DNA from: a virus
Direction: 5' to 3' (one strand)
IMG/VR virus record: IMGVR_UViG_3300045988_099729
Coordinates: 1 to 39,308 of that record
DNA: 39,308 nt
This document shows, one piece after another, positions 22,346 through 39,308 of this stretch (positions are counted from its first letter, which is position 1; every line of letters begins with the position of its first letter). The position numbers and the translations under genes were made by a program. The notes beneath the pieces are model-generated. The model saw only the letters and a list, made by a program, of their open reading frames with translations. It searched no databases and was not told where the DNA came from.

Positions 22346-22588
22346 ATGAAAATGTCAGAATGGTTAAGTGAAGAAGAACAGTATAAAGATACGTTGAATA
22401 ACGAAGAAATCAGCAGGATCAAAGACCCTGAGCTGAGAGAAATAAGGCAAAGACATTGGGCGTATGAGAAAAAGATATATAAAGATAGCTCTATTGCGGA
22501 TTCGGAACTTGACAGATTGGTAAAGATAGATTGGGAGAAAGAGCGAAAAGAGATTTTGGAATACAAGAAAAAGCATAATAAATGTTAG
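22346..22588 (+). CDS. Hypothetical protein (80 aa, charged/helical)
   Basis: GAAAGGGTG RBS and ATG at 22346. Confidence 0.55.
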   Translation: MKMSEWLSEEEQYKDTLNNEEISRIKDPELREIRQRHWAYEKKIYKDSSIADSELDRLVKIDWEKERKEILEYKKKHNKC

Positions 22589-22590
22589 TT

Positions 22591-22616
22591 AAAAGCATCC
22601 TTCGGGGTGCTTTTGT
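22591..22616 (+). terminator. Hairpin with UUCG tetraloop (aaaagcatcc-ttcg-gggtgctttt) separating the early/middle genes from the packaging operon
   Basis: 10-bp stem with one G-U pair. Confidence 0.6.
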
Positions 22617-22653
22617 AATACGGCAAAACAACACGAATGAGAGGTGATGGTAC

Positions 22654-24763: not shown

Positions 24764-26165
24764 TTATTTCAGGAAAAAAGGAATCGATACGGTAGATGCT
24801 TCGTTCTACCGGAAGATCGATGAGTGGATCAGCTGGTACAATTCCAATGTCCGGCAGTTTACGTTCTACAAGGTGAATACCGGACGAGGTACAAGTAAAC
24901 GATGCCGTAGGAAGAGCATGGGAATGGCAAAGAAACTGTCAGAGGATATTGCAGATCTGCTCCTTAATGAGAGAGTTATGATCACACTGGAAGATGAAAT
25001 GACACAGGAATTTGTGCAGAAGGTTCTGGATAACAATCACTTCTTGGTCATGGGAAATGACTACCAGGAACGGAAAGCGTATTCCGGGACCGTGGCATAC
25101 ATCCCTTATCTGTACAATGCGGTTGTACAGGAAGATGGAACGATATCTGCAGGTGAGATTGGAATCAACTATGTGGATGCCAAGAACATCTATCCGGTCA
25201 GTTGGAATAACGGGAACGTCACAGAATGCGTTTTTACGTTTGTCCATACTGTTCGCCAGAAGAAATACGTGCAGATTCAGTTCCATCGGATTGAGTCAAA
25301 TGGGATGTATGTGATCGAAAATAATGTCCTGGAATGCACGAAAGGCAGTGCGGAAGGACGTGAGCTGACAGAACAGGAATGGAAACAGCTGAAACCATTT
25401 GCAAATCTGGCATCCAGAACAGAGACAGGATCCACAGAACCGCAGTTTGTTATCGACAGGCTGAATATCACAAACAATGCGGGCGAATGTAATCCAATGG
25501 GAATTGCGATTTTTGCAAACGCCATAGATACCTTAAAAAAACTGGACACGGAGTTTGATTCCTACTGCAATGAGTTCGATCTGGGAAGAAAAAGAATCTT
25601 TGTTGCTCCGGAAATGCTGACGAATGAGGACGGATCCCCAACCTTTGATCCGGATGATGGTGTGTTCTATTCGCTTCCGGAAGATTACGATAAGAGCCAG
25701 ACCGGTCTGATCAAGGAAGTAGACATGAGCCTCCGGGTAGAACAGCACAGCAAGGCAATCAATGATGATCTGAATTATCTGTCTCTGAAATGCGGATTCG
25801 GTACGGAAAGATACCGGTTTGACGGAGCAGGAGCGAAGACAGCAACTGAGATCATTTCGGAGAACTCAGATATGTACCGTATGCTGAAGAAGCATGAGAT
25901 AATCTTGGAAGATGTCATAAAGCGGCTGGTCAGAATCATTATCCGGCTCGGTATTGTGACAGGAAATACACTGGACCAGAACACAGATATTGTGATTGAC
26001 TTTGATGATTCTATCATTGAGGATAAGGGCGCAGAGCGTCAGCAGGACCGTCAGGACGTCAGCATGGGCGTGATGCGGCATGAAGAGTACCGTGCAAAAT
26101 GGTACGGTGAAACAGTGAAACAGGCAAAAAAGAATCTGCCAGAGCAGAATCAGGTAATGGAGTAG
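24750..26165 (+). CDS. Portal protein
   Basis: 471 aa and directly after terL, with the size, position and acidic C-terminal region typical of SPP1-type portals. Confidence 0.85.
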   Translation: MNIFNYFRKKGIDTVDASFYRKIDEWISWYNSNVRQFTFYKVNTGRGTSKRCRRKSMGMAKKLSEDIADLLLNERVMITLEDEMTQEFVQKVLDNNHFLVMGNDYQERKAYSGTVAYIPYLYNAVVQEDGTISAGEIGINYVDAKNIYPVSWNNGNVTECVFTFVHTVRQKKYVQIQFHRIESNGMYVIENNVLECTKGSAEGRELTEQEWKQLKPFANLASRTETGSTEPQFVIDRLNITNNAGECNPMGIAIFANAIDTLKKLDTEFDSYCNEFDLGRKRIFVAPEMLTNEDGSPTFDPDDGVFYSLPEDYDKSQTGLIKEVDMSLRVEQHSKAINDDLNYLSLKCGFGTERYRFDGAGAKTATEIISENSDMYRMLKKHEIILEDVIKRLVRIIIRLGIVTGNTLDQNTDIVIDFDDSIIEDKGAERQQDRQDVSMGVMRHEEYRAKWYGETVKQAKKNLPEQNQVME

Positions 26166-26166
26166 G

Positions 26167-27885
26167 ATGCGAAAAGAATACAAAGATCAAGTTGCCGATA
26201 AGATTGCAGCGCGGTACATAGGTCTGGAAGAACGGATCCTGCAGGACATTGCCCGGCGGATCAAAAAGACCGGCGAGATCACCAGTACAGCAGACTGGCA
26301 GATCAATAGACTTCTGATTCTGGGATATTCTTCCGAGGATATCGAAAGAGAGATCAAGAAAACACTGGATGCATCTTATCCGGAGATGTTTGAACTGTAC
26401 GATAAGGTAATTGACTGGGAATATGTTCGGAACAAGGACATTTACGAACAGATCAATGCAGAGTTTATCCTGTTTGAGAAGAATGAACAGCTCAAGCAGA
26501 TCACAGATGCGGTCATTCAGCAGAGTCTGGAAGATCTGGAAAATGTAACGAGGTCACTTGGCTTTTATCTGGATTATAACGGCAGAAAGGTCCTGACACC
26601 GTTGTCGCAGGTTTATACAAATTATCTGGACAATGCCTGCTTTGACATTGTGACCGGAGCATTTGACTATGGCAGCGTATTGCGCCGAGTGGTCACACAG
26701 CTGACAAACAGTGGACTTCGGAAGATTGAGTACGGATCCGGATACGCAAGCCGGGTAGAAGTGGCTGCCAGAAGAGCTGTGATGACTGGTGTGGCGAATC
26801 TTACCGGTGAAATAGCAGACTATAATGCCAAGAAGCTCGGAACAGAGTATTTTGAGGTTGAGTGGCATGCCGGAGCCCGTCCGACTCATGCAGTATGGCA
26901 AGGTCAGGTCTGGACAAAAGAGCAATTGTACTCAGTCTGTGGACTTGGTACAGTGACAGGACTTCTGGGAGCCAATTGTTATCATACTTATTATCCATTC
27001 TTTCCTGGTATTTCACAGCGTAACTGGTCAGATGAATGGCTGGAAGCTCAGAACCGGAAGGAAAGCAAACCAAAAGAGTTCCGGGGCAAAGCGTACACTC
27101 TGTACGAGGCAAAGCAGAGACAGCGCCAGATGGAGACAGCAATGCGGGCACAGCGAGAAAAGGTACAGATGCTTCAGGATGGCGGTGCTGATCGGCAGGA
27201 AGTTATGCTCCAAAAAGCCAAATATCAGGGACAGCTTAATGAATATGCGACGTTTTCTCGGAAAATGAGGCTGAAAGAGGAAAGAGAGCGGATTTATATT
27301 GATGGACGAGGAAGAATTGCACCGAGTCAGTATGATCTGAAAATGAGAATTTCTATTCCAGACACAGTTGCTAAGAAAGCAGGTTTGAGCAAAGAAATTG
27401 AAGCGAAAATCAATGCGGCGATAAAGAAGTTGGATTCGGAATACGTGATTTACTTAGATTCTATTAAAGGCGGAAAACTAAAGAAAAATGATATTTTTGC
27501 AACAGGTGCTTACTTGGATGAAAATGGAATGCTGAGACATGGACTTGTTTTGAATTACAAACAAGATTATAGAAAAGTTGAAACTATTATGCCGAGATGG
27601 TACAATGATGGTGTAATGGCGGGAAAGAATTTTGAAGATTACATTGCGCATGAAATGGCGCATATAATACCATTTCAGAACTGCGTATCAGAAGTGGAAT
27701 ATATAGAGTTAAATGAAAAAATAAGAAGGCAGTTCATAGCAGGAATTTCAGAATATGCAGATAGAAGCAAAGACGGTCGAGAGTGCTTAGCGGAGGCGTT
27801 TGTTAGATATAGAAACGGAGAGTGGATTCCAGATGAAGCAAGAAAACTTATCAGAAAATATATCCTTCATTGGCGGAGGGTTTAG
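26167..27885 (+). CDS. MuF-like / minor capsid protein 2 family head morphogenesis protein with a ~185-aa C-terminal extension carrying HExxH
   Basis: Core motifs VEVAARRAVMTG...EVEWHAGARPTHAVWQGQVW...GANCYHTYYPF. The extension spans about 27320..27885, with HEMAH at 27649..27663. Confidence 0.8.
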   Translation: MRKEYKDQVADKIAARYIGLEERILQDIARRIKKTGEITSTADWQINRLLILGYSSEDIEREIKKTLDASYPEMFELYDKVIDWEYVRNKDIYEQINAEFILFEKNEQLKQITDAVIQQSLEDLENVTRSLGFYLDYNGRKVLTPLSQVYTNYLDNACFDIVTGAFDYGSVLRRVVTQLTNSGLRKIEYGSGYASRVEVAARRAVMTGVANLTGEIADYNAKKLGTEYFEVEWHAGARPTHAVWQGQVWTKEQLYSVCGLGTVTGLLGANCYHTYYPFFPGISQRNWSDEWLEAQNRKESKPKEFRGKAYTLYEAKQRQRQMETAMRAQREKVQMLQDGGADRQEVMLQKAKYQGQLNEYATFSRKMRLKEERERIYIDGRGRIAPSQYDLKMRISIPDTVAKKAGLSKEIEAKINAAIKKLDSEYVIYLDSIKGGKLKKNDIFATGAYLDENGMLRHGLVLNYKQDYRKVETIMPRWYNDGVMAGKNFEDYIAHEMAHIIPFQNCVSEVEYIELNEKIRRQFIAGISEYADRSKDGRECLAEAFVRYRNGEWIPDEARKLIRKYILHWRRV

Positions 27886-27886
27886 A

Positions 27887-28042
27887 ATGACATTGCCAAA
27901 GTGTATGCTGTGCAGTAATTTCAATGAAAATAGTGAAGAGATGACTTGTAAAGCATTTCCAGATGGAATACCGGAGGATGTAATTTTTTCTGGTTATGAA
28001 GAGGAATGCAAAAACGGAATTAAATTTAAAGAGTTTGAATAG
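27887..28042 (+). CDS. Small Cys-containing protein (51 aa)
   Basis: ATG 1 nt after the MuF stop and GGCGGAGGG upstream. Sequence starts MTLPKCMLCSNFNENSEEMTCKAFPDGIPEDV. Confidence 0.55.
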   Translation: MTLPKCMLCSNFNENSEEMTCKAFPDGIPEDVIFSGYEEECKNGIKFKEFE

Positions 28043-28045
28043 TTG

Positions 28046-28075
28046 CCACCAGTCGAAATGACCGGTGGTATTTTT
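28046..28075 (+). terminator. Rho-independent terminator inside the head module
   Basis: ccaccagtc/gaccggtgg stem (one mismatch), 5-nt loop, then tattttt. Confidence 0.6.
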
Positions 28076-28099
28076 GTACTTATTTTTAGGAGGCCGGTA

Positions 28100-28375
28100 A
28101 TGAAAAAGAAAGCAGTAGCAGTATTAACGGCTATCAGCATATTGATAGCAGGTTTAACTGGATGCCAGACCGCCACGAAAAGTTATGGTGGGAAGACAAC
28201 GATAAAGCTTGAGCCAAATCAGAAACTGGAAGAAATTACCTGGAAAGATGATTCTTTATGGTACCTTACAAGACCAATGACTAATGAGGATATTGCTGAA
28301 ACCCATACATTCCAACAGCAGTCAAATTTTGGAGTCTTTGAAGGAACAGTAACCATCATAGAGTCAAAGGAGTAA
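28100..28375 (+). CDS. Small lipoprotein (91 aa), candidate superinfection-exclusion moron
   Basis: AGGAGG RBS. Signal peptide MKKKAVAVLTAISILIAGLTGC with lipobox LTGC. Confidence 0.75.
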   Translation: MKKKAVAVLTAISILIAGLTGCQTATKSYGGKTTIKLEPNQKLEEITWKDDSLWYLTRPMTNEDIAETHTFQQQSNFGVFEGTVTIIESKE

Positions 28376-28382
28376 AGAATTT

Positions 28383-28670
28383 ATGATAACAATAAAAATA
28401 ACAGATCACAGCATCTGTATGAATGGTCATGCCGGCAGGAAGAGTCCGGATGGGATTGATCGGGTATGTGCGGCAGTATCAGCACTGACCTGCAACCTGA
28501 TCAATTCCCTGAAAGATCTGACAGGTGACAGAATCCGGGGAGAAACAGCCAGCGGAATGACTGTGATCGAATGGGAAGATCTGTCAGATGGTGGAAAGCT
28601 TCTGATTGATTCATGGTTCCTGGGGATTGCAGTAATTGACCAGGAATACAATTGCATACAGTTTGAGTAA
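28383..28670 (+). CDS. prp: Prp-family (DUF464/YsxB-like) cysteine protease
   Basis: GHAG...GIDRVCAAVSALTCNLINSL is the Prp His/Cys signature. 95 aa. Confidence 0.8.
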   Translation: MITIKITDHSICMNGHAGRKSPDGIDRVCAAVSALTCNLINSLKDLTGDRIRGETASGMTVIEWEDLSDGGKLLIDSWFLGIAVIDQEYNCIQFE

Positions 28671-28757
28671 ATGAGCATCCAGTGAGGGTGCTTTTTATTA
28701 TGTCCAAAACATGAAGACAGAAAAAGCTCTGGAAAACACTCATATTTGGAGGTAAGC

Positions 28758-29357
28758 ATGAGAAAAAGAATTTTTTTACAGCTCTTTGAAGACGGCGGCG
28801 GAGCTGGCTCTGGTGGACAGGGTGGAAACGCTGGAGCAGGTAACGGCAGCCAGGGAAATGCCGGCGGAACAGGAAACCAGGGATCGTACAGTTTTGCGCA
28901 GGCAGAAGAGATTGCCAATGCGAGAGCAGACAGAGCTGAAAAAGCGGCGCTTCGTTCCTATTTTCAGCAGCAGGGAATGACAGAGCAGCAGGTGAATCAG
29001 GCAATTGCCGATTATAAGGAACAGCAGAAAAAGAATCAGCCGAATGTGACACAGCTGCAGCAGGATCTGGAAAATTCCAGAAATGAAGTCCAGCAGATGA
29101 AGAATGAGAAGTTTTTATCCGGAAAAGGTGTCAAGGCTGATGATCTGGACTATGTGACTTACAAGGTTTCCAAATTGGTGGATGATAAAACGACATTTGA
29201 AAAGGCAGCAGAGAAGTTTTTAAAGGAGAATCCGAGATTTGCCGGTGGAGGTTCTTACCGGATTGCAGATTCTTCAACAGGTAACGCTTCAAATGGTTCT
29301 GGCGGAAACATGAACGTTTCCATCAATGACCGGATCAGAGCTGCCGCGAGAAGATAA
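28758..29357 (+). CDS. Scaffolding protein (199 aa) with a Prp-type N-terminal leader
   Basis: GGAGGT RBS and ATG at 28758. Leader MRKRIFLQLFE, then a Gly-rich linker, then a coiled coil (QQKKNQPNVTQLQQDLENSRNEVQQMKNEK). Confidence 0.8.
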   Translation: MRKRIFLQLFEDGGGAGSGGQGGNAGAGNGSQGNAGGTGNQGSYSFAQAEEIANARADRAEKAALRSYFQQQGMTEQQVNQAIADYKEQQKKNQPNVTQLQQDLENSRNEVQQMKNEKFLSGKGVKADDLDYVTYKVSKLVDDKTTFEKAAEKFLKENPRFAGGGSYRIADSSTGNASNGSGGNMNVSINDRIRAAARR

Positions 29358-29371
29358 TGGAGGTAGAGTAA

Positions 29372-30352
29372 ATGCAGAATAGAAGAATGAATTTAAGATT
29401 GTTTGACACAGATACAAACATCATTGACCGTACCGGAGCAGAGTCTCTGATTCCAATTCAGGAATCCAATGAGATCATCCAGGGAACGATCGCACAGTCA
29501 GCAGTCCTGTCAAGAGGTCGCAAGCTGGCGAACATGACAAGCAGACAGTACAAAATGCCGGTACTGGATATGCTGCCGATTGCATATTTCGTAAACGGTG
29601 ATACCGGACAGAAGAAAACTACAAAGCAGGCATGGGACAAGAAGCTCATCACTGCCGAAGAGATTGCGGTTATTGTTCCAATTCCGGAAGCAGTTCTGGA
29701 TGATTCTGAGTATGACATCTGGGGAGAAGTAAAACCGAGAGTTACAGAAGCATTTGGAAAGGTTATCGACAGCGCAGTGCTGTTCGGTGAAAATAAACCG
29801 AACACATGGAGAGAAGATGTGGTTACAACCGCGACAAAAGCGGGAGCAGTCGTAACATTAGGAGCCGCAGACAGTCTGTATGACAAGATCATGGCAGAGG
29901 ACGGAGTGATCGCACATATTGAAGACTGCGGATACTTTGTAAACGGTCACATGGCAGACATTTCCATGAGAGCAAAACTCAGAGGCCTGAAGAACGCAAA
30001 CGGGGATCCGCTGTTCAAACAGGATCTGCAGGGAACCACACAGTATGCGCTTGACGGATCTCCGATGAACTTCCCGAACAACGGTGCTTTTGACAAATCA
30101 AAGGCTCTTATGATTTCCGGAGATTTCTCACAGCTCGTATATTCTATCCGTCAGGATATCACATTCAAACTCTTCACAGAGGGTGTTGTACAGAACACAG
30201 ACGGAACTATCGCATACAACCTGATGCAGAATGATATGGTCGCTCTTCGTGCTGTAATGCGTCTTGGTTGGGAAATCCCGAATCCGATCAACGCTCTTAA
30301 GACGGACAAAAACAAGAGATGCCCGTTTGCAGTTCTGAAAACAGGTGAGTAA
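29372..30352 (+). CDS. Major capsid protein (HK97-fold type) with a Prp-type N-terminal leader
   Basis: 326 aa and directly after the scaffold gene. Leader MQNRRMNLRLFD. The body is typical of Firmicutes siphovirus capsid proteins. Confidence 0.85.
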   Translation: MQNRRMNLRLFDTDTNIIDRTGAESLIPIQESNEIIQGTIAQSAVLSRGRKLANMTSRQYKMPVLDMLPIAYFVNGDTGQKKTTKQAWDKKLITAEEIAVIVPIPEAVLDDSEYDIWGEVKPRVTEAFGKVIDSAVLFGENKPNTWREDVVTTATKAGAVVTLGAADSLYDKIMAEDGVIAHIEDCGYFVNGHMADISMRAKLRGLKNANGDPLFKQDLQGTTQYALDGSPMNFPNNGAFDKSKALMISGDFSQLVYSIRQDITFKLFTEGVVQNTDGTIAYNLMQNDMVALRAVMRLGWEIPNPINALKTDKNKRCPFAVLKTGE

Positions 30353-30368
30353 GGGAGGGTGATGATCC

Positions 30369-30782
30369 ATGCAGATCACGTATGGATACTACGCAGTTGA
30401 ATATGGAGGAAAAACCATTCCGGAACAGGACTTCCAAAAAGCCGAAAGGCAGGCGGAAGCCTATATCCGGCATCTGACCTATGTGAAAGGTGATATCTTT
30501 GCCGCGGAAAATGATATAGTGAAGGATGCTGTTTGTGCTGCAGCAGAGGTTTATTACAAATACAATGCGCAGCAACAGTCAGGAGTCCCGTTGGTGAAGT
30601 CGGAAAATAACGATGGCTACAGTGTGACCTATGTCACAGAGCAGACGGATGGAAAGACAGCGGAAGAGATGGTGAAGAAAAAGGCGTATGATGCGGTATA
30701 TCCTTATCTTCTCCCTACTGGATGGCTGTCAAGAAAGGTAGGGGTGCGGTGTGATCACAAATGCAGATGTGACAGTTTATAA
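30369..30782 (+). CDS. Head-tail connector (gp6-like) protein
   Basis: Position after the capsid gene. The N-terminus is YAVEYGGKTIPEQDFQKAERQAEAYIRHLT. Confidence 0.6.
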   Translation: MQITYGYYAVEYGGKTIPEQDFQKAERQAEAYIRHLTYVKGDIFAAENDIVKDAVCAAAEVYYKYNAQQQSGVPLVKSENNDGYSVTYVTEQTDGKTAEEMVKKKAYDAVYPYLLPTGWLSRKVGVRCDHKCRCDSL

Positions 30783-31152
30783 CAGAATAAGCGGTGATTC
30801 CACACATTACGATACCTGGATCCGAACTGTTTTGCATGGTGTCCACGTCCATGTGGACCATAAGACTGCAGTTACGGATAACGGGCTGAAAAGTGCGGAG
30901 GTTTACAAAATCCGGATTCCCGCGGATATTCCGGAAGCAGGGCAGTATCTTCCGCCGGATCAGTTCGCCTGCTGTGGCGGTTATGGATACTGGACCATAC
31001 AGAATGATGATCAGATTGTCCTGGGAGAGTGTCAGATTGAGATTGAAAGACCTGCAGATCTGAAAGCCGTGTTCCAGAAGCACTGCAAGGTGACAAGCTG
31101 GTCGGACAACCGGTTTGGTACGACTCCGCACTGGCGGATCGGAGGCGAGTAA
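30751..31152 (+). CDS. Neck/head-closure protein (minor capsid 1-type slot), GTG start
   Basis: AGGGGTG RBS. The ORF lies in the neck gene string. Confidence 0.55.
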   Translation: MITNADVTVYNRISGDSTHYDTWIRTVLHGVHVHVDHKTAVTDNGLKSAEVYKIRIPADIPEAGQYLPPDQFACCGGYGYWTIQNDDQIVLGECQIEIERPADLKAVFQKHCKVTSWSDNRFGTTPHWRIGGE

Positions 31153-31153
31153 G

Positions 31154-31537
31154 ATGGCAGGAAAGAAAGAATTCCGGATCACAACGCCGAGAGGCAGTGT
31201 ATTTACAGTGACTGGTAAGAATGGTTCTACCACGGCATGGATGGAATGGGCTCCGGGATTCGCACAGAAAAAAGCGGAGGGATTTTCAAGGGCCCAGACA
31301 TTTGTGGATTCCGAGTGTCTGCGCTACATGAATCCGCTGACACCGAGAAGAACCGGGATGTTGATTAAGTCCGGGGCGCTTGGTACGGTGGTTGGTTCTG
31401 GCTCTATTGAATACCTTGCCCCATATGCCCGCCGGCAGTATTACGAGCATAAAACTAAGGCAAGATGGTTTGAAACAATGAAAGCGAGCCACAAAGATGC
31501 CATAAGGGAAGGAGCTGAGAAACTTGCCGGACAGTAA
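31154..31537 (+). CDS. Neck/tail-completion protein (minor capsid 2 / gp10-like)
   Basis: ATG at 31154. ...LAPYARRQYYEH is the typical motif. Confidence 0.6.
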   Translation: MAGKKEFRITTPRGSVFTVTGKNGSTTAWMEWAPGFAQKKAEGFSRAQTFVDSECLRYMNPLTPRRTGMLIKSGALGTVVGSGSIEYLAPYARRQYYEHKTKARWFETMKASHKDAIREGAEKLAGQ

Positions 31538-31946
31538 ACGGAAACCGATTATCGAAAGCATCCGGGAATATGTGAGAACGTATCCCGGAATCGATAACAG
31601 GAAGATCAATATTGATTATCTCGGAGACGGAATGGAGTATTCCATTGATCCGATCGGAGCAGATCCTGTCTATAAAAAATATACGGATGGGAGCTGTCTG
31701 AAACAGTTCCAGTTTGCTCTTACCAGTAAGGAGGCCTATGACGGTGATGCAAGAACAGGCATTGCCAATAGTGGCTTTTATCAGGACTTTGAAGAGTGGA
31801 CGGAACAGAACAACTTAAATGATATCGTACCTCAGCTGGACGGTCACAATGCTATTAGGGTGGAAGTGATGCAGTCCGGCTATTTATTTAGCGCGGAAGC
31901 TGATCTCGGACGGTATCAGATGATATGCAGAGTAATTTACAGATAG
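31524..31946 (+). CDS. Neck/tail-terminator-slot protein (140 aa, TTG start)
   Basis: The ORF directly precedes the major tail gene. Confidence 0.55.
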   Translation: MPDSKRKPIIESIREYVRTYPGIDNRKINIDYLGDGMEYSIDPIGADPVYKKYTDGSCLKQFQFALTSKEAYDGDARTGIANSGFYQDFEEWTEQNNLNDIVPQLDGHNAIRVEVMQSGYLFSAEADLGRYQMICRVIYR

Positions 31947-31956
31947 GAGGAGTTAT

Positions 31957-32454
31957 ATGGACCCAGAAAAGATGTTAGTAGGCAGACATAAGAAAGTAGC
32001 TTTTATGGATGCTGACGGTAAAGGAACAACATATACGAGAATGACTGGTTTTACATCACTGTCAGAGGGCAAAAACTCTATTGAGTACAGCCGTCAGTAT
32101 GTGGACGAAGCATCAGAAAGATCGGATGTAGTAGGCTATTCACCAGCCATCGACTACGAACTGGATAGATATACGAATGATCCGGTGCATGAAAAGATCG
32201 CAACAATTACAGATGATGAGATTGTTGGAACAGATGCACAGGTTAGCATTGTAGTAGTTGACCTCTTCGACCAGAAGACGTCCGAAACAACTTGTACAGC
32301 GCGTAAAAGATTGTGGAGTGTGATTCCGGACACAGAAGGTGACGGAACGGACGCGCTGATCTACAAAGGAAGTTTTAAAGCAGCAGGAGAAATTGTGAAA
32401 GGCACAGCTACCACCACAGACGGGTGGAAGACTTGTACTTTTTCAGAAGCATAG
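31957..32454 (+). CDS. Major tail protein
   Basis: AGGAGGAG RBS. 165 aa, in the canonical position before the chaperones and tape measure. Confidence 0.75.
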   Translation: MDPEKMLVGRHKKVAFMDADGKGTTYTRMTGFTSLSEGKNSIEYSRQYVDEASERSDVVGYSPAIDYELDRYTNDPVHEKIATITDDEIVGTDAQVSIVVVDLFDQKTSETTCTARKRLWSVIPDTEGDGTDALIYKGSFKAAGEIVKGTATTTDGWKTCTFSEA

Positions 32455-32476
32455 AATATAACAGGAGAGTGAGCCA

Positions 32477-32920
32477 ATGAGCCTTTGGAAATTTGGAGAT
32501 TTTGAAGCAGAAGTGGATTTCACGGATGCGGATTTTTTAGATGTGTTAGAGGAAGCAAAAGCAGAAATGTTTGAAGCAGGGAAAAAGGTTCCCATAACCG
32601 GAAAGCAGAGTGATATCATCCGCGCGCAGTGCGCGTGTTTTTATGTGTTCTTCGATACCCTGTTTGGCGAGGGAGCAGGGGAGCGGATCCTTTGCGGAAA
32701 GAACAGCATCAAGCTGTGTAACGAAGTGGCTGAATCATTGTTAGACTTTGAAACAGCAGAAACAAAGAAACTGGACGATAAATATGATAAGTATGCACCA
32801 AATCAAAATACAACGCAGCAGTTCCCGCATCCGCAGCCACAGCCAAATGGAAGCCGTCAGCAGAGAAGAAACTACCAGAAACAGTATGGTAAGGGAAAAT
32901 ATTCCAATACCGGAAGGTAG
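32477..32920 (+). CDS. Tail assembly chaperone (gpG-slot)
   Basis: Acidic N-terminal part and a Q/P-rich tail. Position immediately after the major tail gene. Confidence 0.6.
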   Translation: MSLWKFGDFEAEVDFTDADFLDVLEEAKAEMFEAGKKVPITGKQSDIIRAQCACFYVFFDTLFGEGAGERILCGKNSIKLCNEVAESLLDFETAETKKLDDKYDKYAPNQNTTQQFPHPQPQPNGSRQQRRNYQKQYGKGKYSNTGR

Positions 32921-32926
32921 CAGAGC

Positions 32927-33502
32927 ATGAATATTTTATATGAGCAGTTTCCGGAAGAAATCAAGGTGAACGGGGAGTACTACCCGATCGTGACAGATTT
33001 CCGTGAATGGATCCGTTTTACGGAGCTGGTTGAAGACGACTCGGTTCCGTGGCGGATCAAATGTGGACTTCTGTTGCAGTGGTATCTGGATCAGATTCCG
33101 GATGATATTGAAGTTGCAATATATGCACTCGGAGATTTCCTGATGTGCAAAAGGATGTACCAGGATGATCTGGAAGATAAAGAGGAAGAGCAGCAGAGAA
33201 GTGGAAAGCCGGTATTTTCTTTTTCGGAAGATGCCGGCTGCATTTATGCAGCGTTCCGGGAGGCATATGGAATTGACCTGCAGCAGATCGATTATATGCA
33301 CTGGTGGGAGTTCCGGAGCTTGTTTGACTGGTTGCCGGATGGTACAGAGATTAAACAACGGATTATGTATCGTTCGATTGATCCTGGAACAATCCGGGAC
33401 AAGGACGAACGTAAACGGATCAAGAAGATCCAGAGAGCTGTTGCACTGAAAAAGAAACAGCGAAAGCTTGATGATTATGAGATTGGAGATATGTTCTCAT
33501 GA
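32927..33502 (+). CDS. Phage Gp15-family protein (second chaperone-slot gene)
   Basis: EIKVNGEYYPIVTDFREWIRF...IDYMHWWEFRSLF is the typical Gp15 family pattern. Confidence 0.7.
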   Translation: MNILYEQFPEEIKVNGEYYPIVTDFREWIRFTELVEDDSVPWRIKCGLLLQWYLDQIPDDIEVAIYALGDFLMCKRMYQDDLEDKEEEQQRSGKPVFSFSEDAGCIYAAFREAYGIDLQQIDYMHWWEFRSLFDWLPDGTEIKQRIMYRSIDPGTIRDKDERKRIKKIQRAVALKKKQRKLDDYEIGDMFS

Positions 33503-33654
33503 TGGAAATTAAAATACCGACACGGCGTGAGTGGTATCCGTGTCCGTACTGCGGTCAGCATCTGCTTGTTTACGCAGATACTGCAGTGTGCAGCGGACTG
33601 TATGTAAAATGCCGCAAATGCCGACGGGAGGTGGAGATAAAAATTAAGAATTAA
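33499..33654 (+). CDS. 51-aa Cys-rich zinc-ribbon protein (Cys_rich_KTR-like); too short for the ORF track
   Basis: ATGATG overlaps the upstream stop. Sequence MMEIKIPTRREWYPCPYCGQHLLVYADTAVCSGLYVKCRKCRREVEIKIKN (CxxC ... CxxC). Confidence 0.55.
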   Translation: MMEIKIPTRREWYPCPYCGQHLLVYADTAVCSGLYVKCRKCRREVEIKIKN

Positions 33655-33698
33655 GCACTTGTGAGCCCCTGAGCCGTGCTATCAGAAAGGATGATAGT

Positions 33699-36233
33699 AT
33701 GGCAGATGGATATTTGAATTTTGATACCAAAATCAATGAGAGTGGGTTCAATGAAGGCATAAATAAGCTTGGAAGTCTTGGAAAAAGTGGCTTATCTGTA
33801 GTCAGCAAGGCAATGACCGGAGCTGTTGCAGCTGTAGGAACTGGAGCAGCGGCGATTGTAAAGTCTTCTCTTGGTGTAGTCGCCAATATGGAGCAGCAGG
33901 TCGGTGGTGTAGAGACACTATTTAAAGATAGTGCCAAGACAGTGATCAGGAACGCAAACAATGCGTTCAAAACAGCACAGCTTTCTGCTAATGATTACAT
34001 GTCAACGGTTACAAGCTTTTCAGCATCATTACTACAGGGCTTAGGCGGAGATACTGCAAAGGCTGCAGAGATTGCAGATATGGCAATCATCGACATGGCA
34101 GATAATGCCAATAAGATGGGTACGAATATGCAGGATATCCAGAATGCCTATCAAGGTTTTGCAAAGCAGAATTATACAATGCTGGATAACCTTAAATTAG
34201 GTTACGGCGGTACACAGTCGGAAATGATCCGATTGATCAATGATTCCGGTATCTTAAATGAAAAAATAGAAGATCTGGATAATGTAACGTTTGACCAGAT
34301 GATTCAGGCAATTCACAAAGTCCAGCAAAATCTCGGAATCACAGGAACTTCCGCAAAAGAAGCCTCTACAACGATAGAAGGTTCTGTTAATTCTGCTAAA
34401 GCCGCCTGGGAAAATTTTGAAGCCGGTGTAATCAGTGCGGACGACCTGGTTGACACATTCTGGACAGCGGCAAAGAATATCTTAAATAATCTTGGTCAAA
34501 TGATCCCGCGTCTGGGAAAGACCGGAATGGATGTGGTGGAATCCTTATCCGGAAAAATCGGTGAAGCGGTTCCGCAATTAAAGGGATTTACAGATAGTGT
34601 CGGAAAATTAGCAGATAAGTTAAAGAACATGAGCACGGATGAGCTCATGAATCTTGGCAAGACTGCAGCAGTGCTTGCAGGAGCCGGACCGGCGATCTCA
34701 TTATTCGGATCACAGATCGGTAATGTACAGTCAGCCGTATCCGGATTCAGCGGACTTACAACTGGTGTTTTATCTGAACTTGGAAAGCTTCCAAAGGGAT
34801 TCAAAAGTGCAACAAAATCGGCTGCAAATTTCCGGAAAGATTTTACGGGTAGCCTGAAAGGGCTCGGCAGTGCAGTTACGGGACCATTTCAGGTACTGAC
34901 TCCGAAATTGTCAGCTACTGTCGGAAAAATCGGCAAGGTAGTTTCCGGTGTCCCAGGTAAAATCGGAGGGGCAGTTGGAAAGATCGGTTCTGCAATCGCA
35001 TCAAAAATCCCCAGAATTACAAGCACGTTTTCACTACTTGGAGATACTGCCGGTTATCTGGGAGCATGGGGCGGACAGGTTGGTTCTGCTCTGCAGGGAG
35101 TTCTTGGAACAGTAGCCGGCTTTATTCCGTCGTTTGTAGGGTTGATGAATTTCGGTGCAGTTGCAGCCGTTGTGGTAGCCGGTCTTGGACTGGTTTACAG
35201 TCAGTTTGGTACACAGATTGACCAGATCCTGCTTCTGGCGCAGACCAAAGGACCGGAGATCATATATAACTTTGGAGCAGGAATCACAGCAGCACTTCCG
35301 GGACTGATTTCATCAGGTGCAACCCTGATCTTGGGATTGATGAATGCGATTACGGCAAATCTACCATCGCTCATTTCCGTAGGCGCAAGCATCATAGCAA
35401 CTCTGGTAAGCAGCCTGGGCGCACAACTTCCGCAGTTAATTCCGGTAGCGGTACAGATGATCCTGACTCTGGTTGAGTCGCTGATCAGTAATCTTCCGCA
35501 GTTAATAACTTCCGGATTACAGTTAATGGAAGGCTTGGCACAGGGAATTGCAAACGCGATTCCGCAGGTGGCAGCGAAAGCACCGGTTATCATCGGCAAG
35601 CTGGCATCTACGATTATCACGAATTTGCCGAAGATCATACAGACTGGTGTGAAGATTATCACGCAGCTCGCAGTCGGACTGGTTCAGGGAATCCCGGCGT
35701 TACTTGGTAAGATTCCATCCATGATCAGCCAGATCAAAAATGCATTTACCAGTGTAAACTGGGGCAGTGTTGGTATGAACATTGTCCGGGGAATTGCAAG
35801 TGGATTAACAAGTGCGGCAAAAAGCCTGGCAGAAGCAGCTGCAAACGCGGCGGATAATGCACTCAATTGGGTGAAATCAAAACTTGGTATTCATTCTCCA
35901 TCGAGAGTATTCCGGGACCAGGTTGGTAAGATGATGGCTCTTGGTATGGGAAGCGGATTTGAGAAGAATATTCCGGTCGGATCCATGAATGCCGGAGTAC
36001 AAAAAGCAGTCCAGAGTCTGCAAAGAAGTGTGCAGCTTACAACATCCGTTAATCCGGATAAAACGGTAGGCGGAATAAAGAATAATCCGATCTTTAAGGA
36101 TCAAGGATTTGATTACGACAGATTTGAACGTATCCAGAGGAAGATTGCAAAAGAAAATGGCAATAAGCCGGTATTCCTGGATACGAAACGGATAGACAGA
36201 CCATTACCGAAAGGAGCAGTGCCACAGGTATGA
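33699..36233 (+). CDS. Tape measure protein (844 aa)
   Basis: Size, position, and a long Gly/Ala/Ser/Ile/Leu-rich hydrophobic central region. Confidence 0.9.
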   Translation: MADGYLNFDTKINESGFNEGINKLGSLGKSGLSVVSKAMTGAVAAVGTGAAAIVKSSLGVVANMEQQVGGVETLFKDSAKTVIRNANNAFKTAQLSANDYMSTVTSFSASLLQGLGGDTAKAAEIADMAIIDMADNANKMGTNMQDIQNAYQGFAKQNYTMLDNLKLGYGGTQSEMIRLINDSGILNEKIEDLDNVTFDQMIQAIHKVQQNLGITGTSAKEASTTIEGSVNSAKAAWENFEAGVISADDLVDTFWTAAKNILNNLGQMIPRLGKTGMDVVESLSGKIGEAVPQLKGFTDSVGKLADKLKNMSTDELMNLGKTAAVLAGAGPAISLFGSQIGNVQSAVSGFSGLTTGVLSELGKLPKGFKSATKSAANFRKDFTGSLKGLGSAVTGPFQVLTPKLSATVGKIGKVVSGVPGKIGGAVGKIGSAIASKIPRITSTFSLLGDTAGYLGAWGGQVGSALQGVLGTVAGFIPSFVGLMNFGAVAAVVVAGLGLVYSQFGTQIDQILLLAQTKGPEIIYNFGAGITAALPGLISSGATLILGLMNAITANLPSLISVGASIIATLVSSLGAQLPQLIPVAVQMILTLVESLISNLPQLITSGLQLMEGLAQGIANAIPQVAAKAPVIIGKLASTIITNLPKIIQTGVKIITQLAVGLVQGIPALLGKIPSMISQIKNAFTSVNWGSVGMNIVRGIASGLTSAAKSLAEAAANAADNALNWVKSKLGIHSPSRVFRDQVGKMMALGMGSGFEKNIPVGSMNAGVQKAVQSLQRSVQLTTSVNPDKTVGGIKNNPIFKDQGFDYDRFERIQRKIAKENGNKPVFLDTKRIDRPLPKGAVPQV

Positions 36234-37012
36234 TTGTATATTATGAAAATATGAATGGCGAAAAGCTGAATCTTTTGAAAGCTCCTTTTCGTACAACGAA
36301 GACTGACTGGTTCGATGCGGACTGGTCAGAGTCTTCGGACGGATATGAAAAAACAGTGACGATTGATGTGTTTGGAAAGCGGGAAGAATTTCAGGCGAAT
36401 ATGGAGCAGCTATACCGGATCATTGCGGTTGATGCAGAAAATGATACCTACGGGAAACTGTACGTGAATGGTGCATATTTAAGATGCAAGGTGTTGAAGT
36501 CAGCGAAAGAAGGATGGAAGGGATATGTGTATTCGGAAGTGGAGATCACCTTCCAGGCTCCAGAGCTTGTATGGGTAGTAGAAGCGACAAGACAGTTTTT
36601 TCCACAATTGGAAGAAACGGCAGCATCCGGAATCGACTTTCAGTATGACTATCCGTTTGATTTTGCCGGAGAAAAAAGAGGAATCGCAGCATGGAATGTT
36701 GATCACATCATTCCAAGCGAGTACCGGATGATCATTTACGGACCATGTGTAAATCCGAAGATTCTGATCAACGATTATCCTTATGAGTTTTTCGTAACGC
36801 TTGAAAGCAGGGAATATCTGATCATAGATAGCCAGAGAAGAACGATCCGAAGGTATTTGACGAATGGAACGGTACAAAATTTATTTAATCAGAGAGCGCA
36901 GAAACAAACTGTTTTCAAGAGAATACCATCCGGGCTTTTAAATATTAACTGGTCCGGGGATTATGGATTTGACCTGACTTTATTTTTGAACAGGAGGGAG
37001 CCGCCGTGGTAA
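36230..37012 (+). CDS. Distal tail protein (Dit-slot)
   Basis: ATGA overlap with the tape measure stop. 260 aa. Confidence 0.7.
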   Translation: MIVYYENMNGEKLNLLKAPFRTTKTDWFDADWSESSDGYEKTVTIDVFGKREEFQANMEQLYRIIAVDAENDTYGKLYVNGAYLRCKVLKSAKEGWKGYVYSEVEITFQAPELVWVVEATRQFFPQLEETAASGIDFQYDYPFDFAGEKRGIAAWNVDHIIPSEYRMIIYGPCVNPKILINDYPYEFFVTLESREYLIIDSQRRTIRRYLTNGTVQNLFNQRAQKQTVFKRIPSGLLNINWSGDYGFDLTLFLNRREPPW

Positions 37013-38004
37013 AGGACATAATTCTTGCAGATAGTGCTGGAAGAGAACTTGGAGCGATTTTGGACTCAAATATCACAGTGGATACGAATGGCGAGTACGA
37101 ATTTTCTGTACAGATTGCAAGGTCGAACTGGTATCCGGAGCTGACCTTTTCAAGCTATGTGTATATTACGGATACGGAATACGGAGGCATTATCGGAGAG
37201 GTGCTGACAGATACAACGCTGGATTATGTGGAGCTGAAGGGAATCACATGGCGGGGAAGACTGCAGTATAAGGTGATTGAACCGCCTACCGGATCTGACT
37301 ACAAAACGATATCCGGCGAACTGAATCAGGTAATGAAAACACTGATCGAGCCGGAGTTTGATGGATTATTCAGAGTTTCATCAGAAGATACGGGTATATC
37401 TGTAAAGAATTTTCAATTTGACCGGTACTGTACATTACTGGAAGGTCTTACCAAAATGCTGAAAAGTGTTGGATACCGCCTGCAGATCCGGTTGATCAAA
37501 GAACAGGATGAACCATGTTATATTCTGATTGAAGCAGTTCCGATTACTGATTATTCTGCGCAGATTGAATTGTCACAGGACAGTCGAATGAATTTCACGA
37601 TGGATGATAAACAAAATGGCGTAAATCATCTGGTCGTAACCGGAAAAGGGGAAATGCAGGAGAGGAACATATTCCATCTGTATGTGCAGAAAGATGGAAG
37701 CATTGGAAAGACGCAGTATTACAAAGGACTGAATGAGATCTCAGCAGTATATGAAAATACGAGCACAGAAACAGCAGAGCTGGAGAAAACGTCCGTGGAA
37801 CAATTGCAGAAGCTGATGAATAAAAAGACATTTCAGATGGATGTTGCAAAGCTTGGAATCGAGGTTGGGATTGGAGATATTGTCGGTGGCAGGGATTACC
37901 TGACTGGGCTGTATATGTCAAAACCAATCGAAAATATCATTTATGAGATTACGAATGATGTGGAATCAATTACTTATAAACTGGAAGGAGAAGATGAAGA
38001 ATGA
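37006..38004 (+). CDS. Tal-slot protein (Sipho_Gp37-like), GTG start
   Basis: 332 aa, directly after Dit. N-terminus DIILADSAGRELGAILDS...EYEFSVQIA. Confidence 0.65.
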   Translation: MVKDIILADSAGRELGAILDSNITVDTNGEYEFSVQIARSNWYPELTFSSYVYITDTEYGGIIGEVLTDTTLDYVELKGITWRGRLQYKVIEPPTGSDYKTISGELNQVMKTLIEPEFDGLFRVSSEDTGISVKNFQFDRYCTLLEGLTKMLKSVGYRLQIRLIKEQDEPCYILIEAVPITDYSAQIELSQDSRMNFTMDDKQNGVNHLVVTGKGEMQERNIFHLYVQKDGSIGKTQYYKGLNEISAVYENTSTETAELEKTSVEQLQKLMNKKTFQMDVAKLGIEVGIGDIVGGRDYLTGLYMSKPIENIIYEITNDVESITYKLEGEDEE

Positions 38005-38843
38005 AAATTGTATCTGGAAGAACCGGATCACCACATGTGACTTCGCAGCAGTTCCGGCAGATGCTGGAGGGGATTATCGGGCAGGGGAGTTATATTATAA
38101 CAAGCGGAGAGAATCTGAAGCCGGAACTTAGCAGTAATAATCTGCTGAAAATCCGAAGTGGGATGATGGCGCATCACGGCTGTATATCTTGCGTGGATAT
38201 TGGTACTTATGATGAGGTTACACTGACAAATGGTAGTCAAGGAATGAAAAGGATTGATCTTATTGTAAATCGGTATACCAGAAATGCAGAGACAGAGGTT
38301 GAAAACTGCAGTTGGAAGGTAATCCAGGGGAAACCGGTTGCAAGTAATCCGGCAGTGCCGGCATACACTTCGGGAAATTTGCAGAATGGAGATCTTGTGG
38401 ATGAATGCCCGGTTTTTGAAGTGCATTATGATGGAATCAATGTTACAGAAGTGAAGAGTTTGTTGAGTGTGACGGATGGACTTTCTGAATTAAGTAGCAA
38501 TTTAACCAAAACTAACACTGTTTTAGAGAACAGGAAACCAATATTCATTGATTCAACGGCGCAAGGAACAGCAAATTTGGATACCAATAGCTTTTTGAAA
38601 GCTGGCGTTACATATGCTTTCATCGTTATGGTTTCCTCCAATATCAGCAGTGAAAGCTATAAACAGGAAATCGCTTGTGCATTAAACAATGTAAATATGG
38701 GAAATAACGGAAACTATTACAAATTAGTTTCTACTTTTGCAGGAAAATGTAGCAAAGGCGATAAGCTTCATATTACTTCGTACAAAAATGGAGGCACATG
38801 GACTCTTTTTGCGACAAGAGCTATTTTTATACCAGTTAGCTAA
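38001..38843 (+). CDS. Tail fibre with a switchable C-terminus: constant part 38001..38484, core 38485..38503, currently fused cassette A to 38843
   Basis: ATGA overlap with the upstream gene and GGAAGGAG RBS. The core encodes (S)ELSSNL. Three further cassettes share the core in phase. Confidence 0.85.
   Translation: MKIVSGRTGSPHVTSQQFRQMLEGIIGQGSYIITSGENLKPELSSNNLLKIRSGMMAHHGCISCVDIGTYDEVTLTNGSQGMKRIDLIVNRYTRNAETEVENCSWKVIQGKPVASNPAVPAYTSGNLQNGDLVDECPVFEVHYDGINVTEVKSLLSVTDGLSELSSNLTKTNTVLENRKPIFIDSTAQGTANLDTNSFLKAGVTYAFIVMVSSNISSESYKQEIACALNNVNMGNNGNYYKLVSTFAGKCSKGDKLHITSYKNGGTWTLFATRAIFIPVS
38485..38503 (+). repeat. Fibre crossover core site sA (ctgaattaagtagcaattt) inside the expressed gene
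   Basis: Identical 19/19 to the inverted copy at 39187..39205, 18/19 to 104..122 and 17/19 to 810..828 (inverted). Confidence 0.85.
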
Positions 38844-39205
38844 TTAGCTAAAATAAGCCGTTGTTGCAATCATTACGAATGAGGCACTATCTGTACCGAC
38901 GATATATACTCCACCATTTTTTATGTATATACGTGCTTGTGTTCCAGCAGGTCCACCATTATGCGTAGCTATTGGAATAAGGCACTCAAAATCGCCATAA
39001 CCATTTGGTGTCATTCCTGACGGGACACTGCCGAGAGCCTGATCGTTTGCAAATTTCCCACCATCTAAAAATCTTATCGATCCAGAAACAAATACCACAT
39101 GACCTATTTTGCGGAATTTTAGCTTTTCTGAAAGATTATTTGCATTAGTCATATATTTCCAACCAGAATCAGCAGTTGCCGTTTTCAAATTGCTACTTAA
39201 TTCAG
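38844..39205 (-). CDS. Silent alternative tail-fibre C-terminal cassette B (about 115 aa, no start of its own)
   Basis: The minus strand reads TELSSNLKTATADSGWKY... from the core. Its stop codon abuts the cassette A stop with 0 nt between them (palindrome agctaattagct, 38838..38849). Confidence 0.7.
39187..39205 (-). repeat. Fibre crossover core site sB (inverted, 19/19 to sA)
   Basis: aaattgctacttaattcag on the + strand is the exact reverse complement of 38485..38503. Confidence 0.85.
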
Positions 39206-39308
39206 TACGCCAGTTGATATACTGAAAGCAAAAAAGGAGCAATGTATGGAAGCGAAAATAATGGATGTATTGCGAAGAATGCAACCGGTTTTAGATGAAA
39301 TGCAATTA
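39190..39308. repeat. Right arm of the 119-bp terminal inverted repeat
   Basis: Exact reverse complement of 1..119. Confidence 0.97.
39246..39308 (+). CDS. 5' end (21 codons) of an unidentified gene running off the window; possible fibre-switch recombinase
   Basis: AAGGAG at 39234..39239, 6-nt spacer, ATG at 39246. MEAKIMDVLRRMQPVLDEMQL stays open to the window end, 40 nt beyond core sB. Confidence 0.4.
   Translation, partial: MEAKIMDVLRRMQPVLDEMQL

What the first reader, a model, noticed from the sequence alone, without database searches (positions are those of the whole stretch)
39190..39308. The 119-bp terminal inverted repeat ends inside the crossover core, suggesting an inversion polymorphism and a missing recombinase segment
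Positions 1..119 and 39190..39308 are exact reverse complements. The repeat consists of 103 nt of unique sequence plus the first 16 nt of the core, and it stops at the first base where cassettes B and C differ (core position 17). So the same flank is joined to cassette B at one end and to cassette C at the other, which is expected if the segment between sB and sC exists in both orientations in the sampled population. A graph assembler would stop a contig at such a shared node. A repeat of 119 nt would fit a k-mer-sized node, but I cannot verify the assembler. The flank carries an RBS and the first 21 codons of a gene (MEAKIMDVLRRMQPVLDEMQL) reading away from the core and out of the window. By analogy with gin/cin/rci lying next to their segments, this is the best candidate for the invertase. 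It does not begin like a Hin/Gin-type serine invertase: the first 21 residues hold no YxRVSTxxQ block and no Ser at all. The enzyme, and possibly further cassettes, are therefore outside the window.
Basis: partly seen in the sequence, partly recalled or inferred. Interest (0 to 1): 0.85.

Follow-up and report, generated by a model that had tools for sequence, protein, structure and literature searches.

The report
Assembly break at phage tail-gene shufflon
The inverted repeat at the two ends of this phage contig is where a k=119 assembler stopped, because a 1.1-kb invertible segment carrying a tyrosine recombinase gene lies in both orientations in the sample; that enzyme shuffles four alternative tail-protein ends, a known kind of host-range switch not yet described in these gut Firmicutes phages.

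Summary
Window 1..119 is the exact reverse complement of 39190..39308, and the match ends at core position 17.

Contigs of the same phage from sister samples are named k119_*, so the repeat length equals the assembler's k-mer (16 nt of core plus 103 nt of flank).

One sister contig (L025) is 100% identical to the window's right end and 99.93% identical to its left end. It supplies the missing 1126-bp middle segment M. The MEAKIMDVL... gene continues there to 329 aa. It is a Xer-like tyrosine recombinase (Pfam Phage_integrase 6.6e-34) with the catalytic R, H, R, H and Y present.

M holds no further cassettes. The complete genome is predicted at 40,228 bp.

M lies between two inverted 19-bp cores and between two tail-to-tail cassette pairs. 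Junctions that only an inversion of M can make occur in the window and in four other assemblies. Eleven of the 16 possible flank-by-cassette junctions are seen for this one phage. Hybrid cores place strand exchange in the invariant TAGCAA.

This is a four-cassette shufflon on the protein encoded after Dit and Tal. It works like the Rin, Rci and hsdS shufflons. It is a real and widespread system, but a new member of a known kind.

The parts
1..119 (-). Left copy of the terminal inverted repeat. It is the recombinase 5' flank (L2, 1..103, reverse strand) plus core positions 1-16 (104..119). It is one 119-mer graph node, not a genome end.
   Evidence: k119 contig names.
1..63 (-). First 21 codons of the tyrosine recombinase gene, reading out of the window (the M-inverted state).
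   Evidence: tblastn; full gene in L009 and L025.
104..122 (+). Hybrid core: L2-type left half (CTGAATTAAG), the invariant TAGCAA, then cassette-B-type ATT.
   Evidence: In L025 the same cassette carries an L3-type left half (CTGAACTAAG).
103..435 (+). Cassette B, a silent alternative C-terminal module (110 codons in frame from the core).
437..829 (-). Cassette D, a silent alternative C-terminal module (130 codons), including core 810..828, which is joined to the downstream-gene side (L4).
38001..38843 (+). The expressed variable tail protein: constant N-terminal part (L1, to 38484), core 38485..38503 and cassette A.
38844..39206 (-). Cassette C, a silent alternative C-terminal module (120 codons), including core 39187..39205.
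39190..39308 (+). Right copy of the terminal inverted repeat: core positions 16-1 (reverse strand), then the L2 flank with an RBS and the first 21 codons of the recombinase (39246..39308).
   Evidence: The flank is identical to the first 103 nt of M in L025.

Best explanation
The window is the excised, circular form of a roughly 40.2-kb temperate siphophage of gut Lachnospiraceae. It was assembled with MEGAHIT at k=119 and cut open at one point.

That point is a 1126-bp segment M. M carries a 329-aa Xer-like tyrosine recombinase gene and is bounded by two inverted 19-bp cores.

In the sampled population M lies in both orientations. Its 5' flank (L2) is therefore joined to cassette C in some molecules and to cassette B in others. 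The 119-mer made of 16 shared core bases plus 103 flank bases is then a branching node of the assembly graph. The contig runs from that node all the way round the genome and back to it. This produces an exact 119-nt terminal inverted repeat and leaves the rest of M in another contig.

In biological terms the locus is a shufflon with this layout: constant N-terminal part of a tail-tip protein, core(+), cassette A facing cassette C, core(-), recombinase, core(+), cassette B facing cassette D, core(-).

The recombinase exchanges strands inside the invariant TAGCAA of the cores. Inversions between oppositely oriented cores place any of four unrelated C-terminal modules (18-26% identical to each other) behind the constant part. 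This presumably changes receptor specificity. Inversions also flip the recombinase gene itself.

Shown: the repeat; the k value; the missing gene and its family; the junction diversity; and the interval in which exchange occurs.

Inferred: that this recombinase, and not the phage's serine integrase, catalyses the exchange; and that the cassettes are receptor-binding modules.
For: - Exact 119-nt ITR and four cores.
- Contigs of the same phage are named k119_*.
- L025 is 100% and 99.93% identical to the two window ends and holds M with the full gene.
- The gene scores Pfam Phage_integrase 6.6e-34 plus a SAM-like N-terminal domain, and NCBIfam XerA-like 4.5e-60. It aligns to XerA and XerD structures with R186, H276, R279, H302 and Y311 in place.
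- Junctions that only an inversion of M can create: L2-B in the window and in L039; L3-A in L026; L3-C in L033 and L041. L026 and L039 come from one sample.
- Eleven of 16 flank-by-cassette junctions are seen for this one phage.
- Core positions 6 and 10 always follow the flank, position 17 follows the cassette, and positions 11-16 (TAGCAA) never vary.
- IMG/VR contigs L007 and L022 carry the recombinase inverted relative to the downstream genes.
- Relatives at 72-73% identity keep the same + - rec + - layout with different, co-varying cores.
- 27 of the 120 best recombinase clusters have a longest contig of 1084-1243 nt, the size of M. Two such contigs were inspected: L045 begins and ends in inverted cores, and L034 ends just past one core but begins about 26 nt inside M.
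Against: - The window's own sample and its M-only contig were not retrieved, so the continuation is shown in sister samples of an identical phage, not in the same assembly.
- No reads were available, so orientation frequencies and the switching rate are unknown.
- Stable co-resident sublineages would give the same graph as active switching.
- Catalysis by this recombinase is not demonstrated.
- The variable protein has no Pfam or PDB sequence match. Its role in receptor binding rests on gene order alone.
Confidence: 0.93

Rival explanations
1. The repeat is a genuine terminal inverted repeat of a linear phage genome, as in protein-primed or telomere-bearing phages.
For: An exact 119-nt ITR lies at both ends of a phage-sized contig.
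Against: - The repeat cuts a recombinase ORF at codon 21 at both ends.
- Its length equals the assembler's k.
- The identical phage is assembled straight through the site in L025.
- The phage integrates through a serine integrase and the window spans the closed attP junction. That indicates a circular or concatemeric intermediate.
Confidence: 0.01
2. The repeat is a purely technical chimera, such as a fold-back library artefact or a misjoin of two different phages, with no real inversion behind it.
For: De Bruijn assemblers can create palindromic contig ends. Some sister contigs look like mixed paths: L029 joins L1-A to C-L1.
Against: - The same L2-B junction was assembled independently in another sample (L039).
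- The reciprocal L3-C and L3-A junctions exist (L033, L041, L026).
- The hybrid cores are exactly what conservative site-specific exchange would produce.
- Both window ends match a single phage at 99.9-100% identity.
Confidence: 0.03
3. The two orientations belong to two stable co-resident sublineages, fixed by old inversion events. They do not reflect ongoing switching within a clone.
For: Assembly graphs cannot separate active switching from a mixture of strains. Deletion-type variants that lack the recombinase exist (L031/L036, L028, L038), so locked lineages do occur.
Against: Eleven junction types occur among about 15 assemblies of a phage that is otherwise 99.9-100% identical. Several states occur within single samples. 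This is hard to reconcile with rare, ancient events.
Confidence: 0.1
4. The inversions are catalysed by the phage's large serine recombinase (7340..8731), and the tyrosine recombinase in M has another role.
For: A Resolvase plus Zn_ribbon_recom protein is encoded in the window. Classical phage tail-fibre switches use serine invertases.
Against: - That protein sits at the prophage-host junction next to an attP-like inverted repeat. This is typical of an integrase.
- The tyrosine recombinase travels with the cores as one block, 97-98% identical at the nucleotide level, into phages with unrelated tail genes.
- Its 72-73%-identical relatives have matching changed cores.
- Its nearest annotated relatives sit inside hsdS inversion loci.
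Confidence: 0.03

Closest known systems
Rin shufflon of Bifidobacterium breve/longum prophages (Mavrich et al. 2018, PMC6109161), also reported in Eggerthella lenta prophages (PMC8778435)
   Same: - A phage-encoded tyrosine-family invertase of XerD-like build, without an arm-binding domain.
- Several in-frame alternative C-terminal cassettes for a tail receptor-binding protein.
- Short asymmetric crossover repeats.
- Variants seen both in prophage and in virion DNA.
   Different: - The host phylum here is Bacillota (Lachnospiraceae), not Actinobacteria.
- The core is a 19-bp CTGAAYTAARTAGCAAWWT, not the 11-bp TTCCCTAACCC.
- In Rin the recombinase gene flanks the cassette array. Here it lies in the middle, between two cassette pairs, and is itself invertible.
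- Sequence relatedness to Rin was not tested.
R64/IncI shufflon with the Rci tyrosine recombinase and sfx sites (from my own knowledge of the literature)
   Same: - A multiple-inversion system run by a tyrosine recombinase.
- 19-bp repeats in which one arm and the spacer are conserved while the other arm varies with the segment.
- Alternative C-termini of an adhesin-like specificity protein.
   Different: - The R64 target is the conjugative pilus tip protein PilV on a plasmid.
- rci lies outside the invertible segments.
- Rci is reported to give inversions only. Here, contigs that look like deletions between directly oriented cores exist.
- Rci did not appear among the best plasmid matches.
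Tyrosine recombinases of phase-variable type I restriction-modification hsdS loci (annotated xerA-like, for example Ligilactobacillus salivarius plasmid NZ_CP020859.1)
   Same: - These are the closest annotated sequence relatives found, at 37-39% identity over 98-100% of the protein.
- The recombinase gene is embedded between oppositely oriented half-genes of the specificity subunit, the same embedded layout as here.
   Different: - The target there is the HsdS specificity subunit of a defence system, not a virion protein.
- Identity is only 37-39%.
- The recombination sites were not compared.
Gin/Cin/Pin/Min serine-invertase tail-fibre switches of Mu, P1, e14 and p15B
   Same: The biological logic is the same: inversion swaps the C-terminal part of a phage tail fibre and so changes host range. 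Min is also a multi-segment shufflon.
   Different: - Those enzymes are small serine recombinases that depend on an enhancer and Fis.
- The enzyme here is a tyrosine recombinase.
- Here the invertase gene lies inside the invertible DNA.

Membership tests
Shufflon (multiple-inversion system acting on a coding sequence) | Three or more copies of a short recombination site, in both orientations, that delimit invertible segments. | tested here: met
   Four cores in the order + - + -. The same layout is found in L009-L013 and L025.
Shufflon (multiple-inversion system acting on a coding sequence) | The segments carry alternative 3' ends that are in frame with one constant 5' part. | tested here: met
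   All four cassettes are open from the core in the frame of the constant part, at 110-130 codons, and are 18-26% identical to each other.
Shufflon (multiple-inversion system acting on a coding sequence) | Different arrangements actually occur, with breakpoints at the sites. | tested here: met
   Eleven of 16 junction types are seen for one phage, all with breakpoints inside the core.
Shufflon (multiple-inversion system acting on a coding sequence) | A dedicated site-specific recombinase is encoded at the locus. | tested here: met
   A 329-aa tyrosine recombinase lies between cores 2 and 3 in L025 and 12 or more related contigs. Its first 21 codons are in the window.
Tyrosine recombinase superfamily (Xer-like, no arm-binding domain) | The Phage_integrase catalytic domain with the R-K-H-R-H/W-Y residues and a SAM-like core-binding domain. 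| tested here: met
   PF00589 at 6.6e-34 and PF13495 at 8.4e-10. R186, the GKGAKER lysine, H276, R279, H302 and Y311 align with XerD and XerA.
Tyrosine recombinase superfamily (Xer-like, no arm-binding domain) | Membership of a curated equivalog family (XerA, XerC, XerD, FimB/E-type invertase or integron integrase). | tested here: not met
   The best match is XerA-like at 203.4 bits against a cut-off of 220. All other families score far below their cut-offs.
Rin shufflon (Bifidobacterium prophages) | The rix crossover repeat TTCCCTAACCC. | tested here: not met
   The core here is CTGAAYTAARTAGCAAWWT. The rix sequence is taken from PMC6109161.
Rin shufflon (Bifidobacterium prophages) | A recombinase orthologous to Rin. 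| not tested
   No Rin sequence was available through the tools. Only the shared XerD-like domain build can be stated.
Gin/Cin/Hin/Min serine invertases | A small serine recombinase (Resolvase domain plus HTH) as the invertase. | tested here: not met
   The locus enzyme is a tyrosine recombinase. The only Resolvase-domain protein in the window is a 463-aa large serine recombinase at the prophage end.
Genuine terminal inverted repeat of a linear genome | The repeat marks physical DNA ends and is independent of the assembler. | tested here: not met
   The repeat length equals k=119. The identical phage is assembled continuously across the site.

The most novel reading that the evidence does not exclude
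M, alone or together with a cassette pair, may be a site-specifically mobile module and not just an invertible one.

Exchange between directly oriented cores would excise a circle that carries the recombinase. That circle could re-enter any phage tail gene that holds a compatible core, rather as an integron cassette does.

This would account for three observations. First, deletion-type genomes occur (L1-A facing C-L4, without M, B and D, in three samples). Second, M is a block of 97-98% nucleotide identity, cut off exactly at the cores, in phages whose tail-protein N-termini are only 32-50% identical. Third, one contig (L024) has the two flank-side half-cores fused head to head.
Probability: 0.15. 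Interest if true: 0.6.

Novelty: new member of a known kind. Interest (0 to 1): 0.4.

Why it matters
- For annotation: an exact terminal inverted repeat of k-mer length on a metagenomic phage contig should be read as a sign of an active inversion locus and a missing piece. It is not a genome terminus. This contig lacks about 1 kb, including a gene.
- For biology: tyrosine-recombinase shufflons on phage tail proteins, so far reported only for Actinobacteria prophages in the papers I could search, are also common in temperate phages of human-gut Lachnospiraceae. I found 2256 homologues at E <= 1e-30.
- The sister-sample data give an unusually complete natural experiment: 11 of 16 junctions, and the exchange interval narrowed to 6 bp.
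- Such switches matter for host-range prediction and for phage-host dynamics in the gut.

Tried and rejected
- A blastn search of the tail/shufflon region against GenBank phages found only two weak partial matches and no annotated relative.
- tblastn of the recombinase against GenBank phages gave at most 39% identity, mostly to unannotated faecal contigs or generic 'integrase' entries.
- A 47-mer from cassette A did not find the window's own contig in IMG/VR.
For that reason the M-only contig of the window's own sample could not be fetched. The window's own record was also not listed (it falls under 'similar places not shown').
- The promoter scan of the locus found no more sites than in shuffled sequence (10 against 8.0 ± 2.9). 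It reported no canonical promoter in front of the recombinase, only a terminator-like hairpin behind it. By eye there is a TGnTATACT extended -10-like motif at 39215-39223, which is untested.
- The variable tail protein has no Pfam match and no significant PDB sequence match. I ran no further search on it.
- I considered that M might have its own inverted ends, which would give the same graph in a clonal genome. I rejected this because M's other end (L3) is unrelated sequence in L025 and all relatives.

Full report
**1. The observation**

Window 1..119 is the exact reverse complement of 39190..39308. The first mismatch comes at base 120, and the extension to 132 nt has 4 mismatches.

A 19-bp core, CTGAATTAAGTAGCAATTT, occurs four times with at most 2 mismatches: at 38485(+), 39187(-), 104(+) and 810(-).

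The repeat is 103 nt of flank plus core positions 1-16. It ends at core position 17, which is A beside cassette B and T beside cassette C.

The flank carries AGGAG (39235-39239) and an ATG at 39246, followed by 21 codons that run off the window.

**2. Why the repeat is exactly 119 nt**

I looked up the window's 280-aa variable protein and its 123-aa downstream protein in public assemblies. This returned about 20 contigs from one ENA series (ERZ272298xx to ERZ27230000), and all of them are named k119_*. That is the naming MEGAHIT gives when its final k-mer is 119 (my knowledge of the assembler).

In a de Bruijn graph a k-mer and its reverse complement are one node. A 119-mer that begins at the last base shared by two alternative junctions is a branching node, and contigs stop there. 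So 119 = 16 shared core bases + 103 flank bases by construction. The 103 nt has no biological meaning.

A sister contig, L028, ends 99 nt past another core for the same reason.

A 19-bp core cannot break a k=119 graph in a clonal genome. The break therefore needs real reads for both junctions.

**3. What is missing**

A 41-mer from the start of the truncated gene hit 13 IMG/VR contigs. In L009 the frame continues to 329 aa.

L025 (ERZ27230000:k119_109631) is 100% identical to window 35001..39308. It is 99.93% identical to window 104..1615, and the single mismatch is core position 6. L025 contains the complete middle segment M of 1126 bp. M consists of 40 nt of 5' flank (L2), the 990-nt gene, and 96 nt of 3' flank (L3) with a terminator-like hairpin.

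M's first 103 nt equal the window's flank exactly. Window 104..39205 plus M gives a 40,228-bp genome. There are no further cassettes in M.

The protein matches Pfam Phage_integrase (6.6e-34) and Phage_int_SAM_4. Its best NCBIfam match is XerA-like, at 203 bits against a cut-off of 220. It aligns with XerA and XerD structures, with R186, the GKGAKER lysine, H276, R279, H302 and Y311 in place. It is a Xer-like tyrosine recombinase without an arm-binding domain.

**4. The locus**

Upstream lie the tape measure gene (33699..36233), Dit (36230..37012) and a minor tail protein (37006..38004). Then comes the variable gene (38001..38843).

The locus reads: constant part (L1), core(+), cassette A facing cassette C, core(-), L2, recombinase, L3, core(+), cassette B facing cassette D, core(-), L4, then the downstream genes.

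The four cassettes are 110-130 codons long, in frame with the constant part, and 18-26% identical to each other.

The variable protein has no Pfam or PDB sequence match. Its role as a receptor-binding tail protein is inferred from gene order.

**5. Evidence that M, and everything else, really inverts**

The two cassettes of a pair are never separated, because no core lies between them. M always lies between the two pairs. It follows that only an exchange between the two cores that bound M can change which pair L2 faces.

Junctions diagnostic for that exchange are:
- L2-B, in the window's left end and in L039;
- L3-A, in L026;
- L3-C, in L033 and L041.

L026 (with L2-C) and L039 (with L2-B) come from the same sample, ERZ27229903. 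That is the same polymorphism as in the window.

Across the sister contigs of this one phage I count 11 of the 16 possible flank-by-cassette junctions: L1-A, L1-C, L1-D; L2-B, L2-C; L3-A, L3-B, L3-C; L4-A, L4-C, L4-D.

IMG/VR contigs L007 and L022 have the recombinase inverted relative to the downstream genes. L003, L007 and L013 carry the same cassettes on different flanks.

**6. Where the strands exchange**

In every junction, core positions 6 and 10 follow the flank: L1 and L2 have T..G, L3 has C..G, and L4 has C..A. Position 17 follows the cassette: A for cassette B and T for A, C and D. Positions 11-16 (TAGCAA) are invariant.

Exchange therefore occurs within positions 11-16. This is a 6-bp interval of the size expected for the overlap region of a tyrosine recombinase (established knowledge of the family).

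The flank-side arm (CTGAAYTAAR) is conserved. The cassette-side arm is only weakly symmetric to it (WTTRA). This recalls the one-conserved-arm sfx sites of the R64 shufflon, a resemblance I draw from memory and did not test.

**7. How general it is**

The recombinase has 2256 homologues at E <= 1e-30. The cluster whose representative is 97% identical to it holds 1848 member sequences.

For 27 of the 120 best clusters the longest contig is 1084-1243 nt, the size of M. I inspected two of these contigs. L045 begins and ends in inverted cores. L034 ends just past one core but begins about 26 nt inside M. So assemblies worldwide tend to break at this segment.

Relatives at 72-73% identity in Faecalimonas and Mediterraneibacter MAGs keep the + - rec + - layout, with different cores: TTAAATAACAAAT and TTAATTGGCAAT. 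This is what is expected if this enzyme recognises these sites.

**8. Comparison with what is known**

The concept is known. The Rin shufflon of Bifidobacterium prophages was described as the first phage-encoded tyrosine invertase acting on a receptor-binding protein (PMC6109161). It was later noted in Eggerthella prophages (PMC8778435).

My literature searches found no description for Lachnospiraceae or other Firmicutes phages.

The differences from Rin are the core sequence, the host phylum, and the position of the recombinase gene, which here lies inside an invertible segment between two cassette pairs.

By sequence, the nearest annotated relatives (37-39% identity) are xerA-like recombinases embedded between opposed hsdS half-genes of type I restriction-modification loci. 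These have the same embedded layout.

GenBank phages hold nothing closer than 39% identity.

**9. Verdict**

The repeat is an assembly signature, not a structure of the DNA.

I rate the system a new member of a known kind and moderately interesting. The most novel reading still open is that M is also a mobile module. Three observations point that way: deletion-type contigs, M as a 97-98% identical block bounded by the cores in unrelated phages, and a head-to-head half-core fusion in L024. I give that reading a probability of about 0.15.

Noticed in passing
window 7282-7343 (crossover near 7307); integrase gene 7340..8731 (-): The window spans the closed attP junction. In sister samples the same phage is integrated: L046 is 100% identical to window 12731->7307 and then continues into host genes (NMT1-type binding protein, DUF975, ABC-F, permease). 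The breakpoint lies inside an imperfect inverted repeat (7282-7300 / 7325-7343), between the endolysin gene and a 463-aa large serine recombinase. The window is therefore the excised, circular form of a temperate phage.
   Followed up: partly
L031/L036 (ERZ27229995), L028 (ERZ27229925), L038 (ERZ27229931); corresponds to window 38001..39205 joined directly to 810..: These contigs join constant part, A, C and L4 directly to the downstream genes. They lack M, B and D, a precise 1.83-kb deletion at the cores. L036 runs through both cores without a break. For intact genomes that would need two mutually exclusive junctions to dominate together. This is therefore probably a real deletion between directly oriented cores, giving a 'locked' phage without the invertase.
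   Followed up: partly
L002, L004, L005, L008, L009, L013 compared with L025 4176-5358: M is 96.5-98.4% identical at the nucleotide level, and the similarity stops at the cores. The neighbouring tail-gene sequence is unrelated or only 67-84% identical (constant part 32-50% identical at the protein level). This suggests recent exchange of the recombinase segment between different phages.
   Followed up: partly
L024 1850-1880 (IMGVR_UViG_3300029359_000143): The recombinase 3' flank is joined to the downstream side through a palindromic fusion of two flank-side half-cores (CTGAACTAAGTAGCAGTTTAGTTCAG), with no distal cassette pair. It is either an aberrant recombination product or an assembly collapse.
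   Followed up: no
L006 11153/11814 and L008 6010/6824: In these relatives the cores of the distal pair read CTTAATTAAATAGCAA. This puts a stop codon (TAA) in the cassette frame on the flank side. Because positions 1-10 stay with the flank, it should not be carried into the expressed gene.
   Followed up: no
window 8936..9481 (-), 9520..11031 (-), 11524..12090 (-): Three genes lie between the integrase and the early region: a Uma2-family putative endonuclease, a 503-aa protein with a T5orf172/MUG113 (GIY-YIG-like) domain, and an HTH repressor-like gene. The first two could be accessory or defence-type cargo.
   Followed up: no
window 1440..4091 (+): An 883-aa protein two genes downstream of the shufflon has only PHROG matches of unknown function. 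Its middle part is 80% identical, while its ends are only 38-49% identical, in related phages. It may be a second, mosaic tail or host-recognition protein.
   Followed up: no
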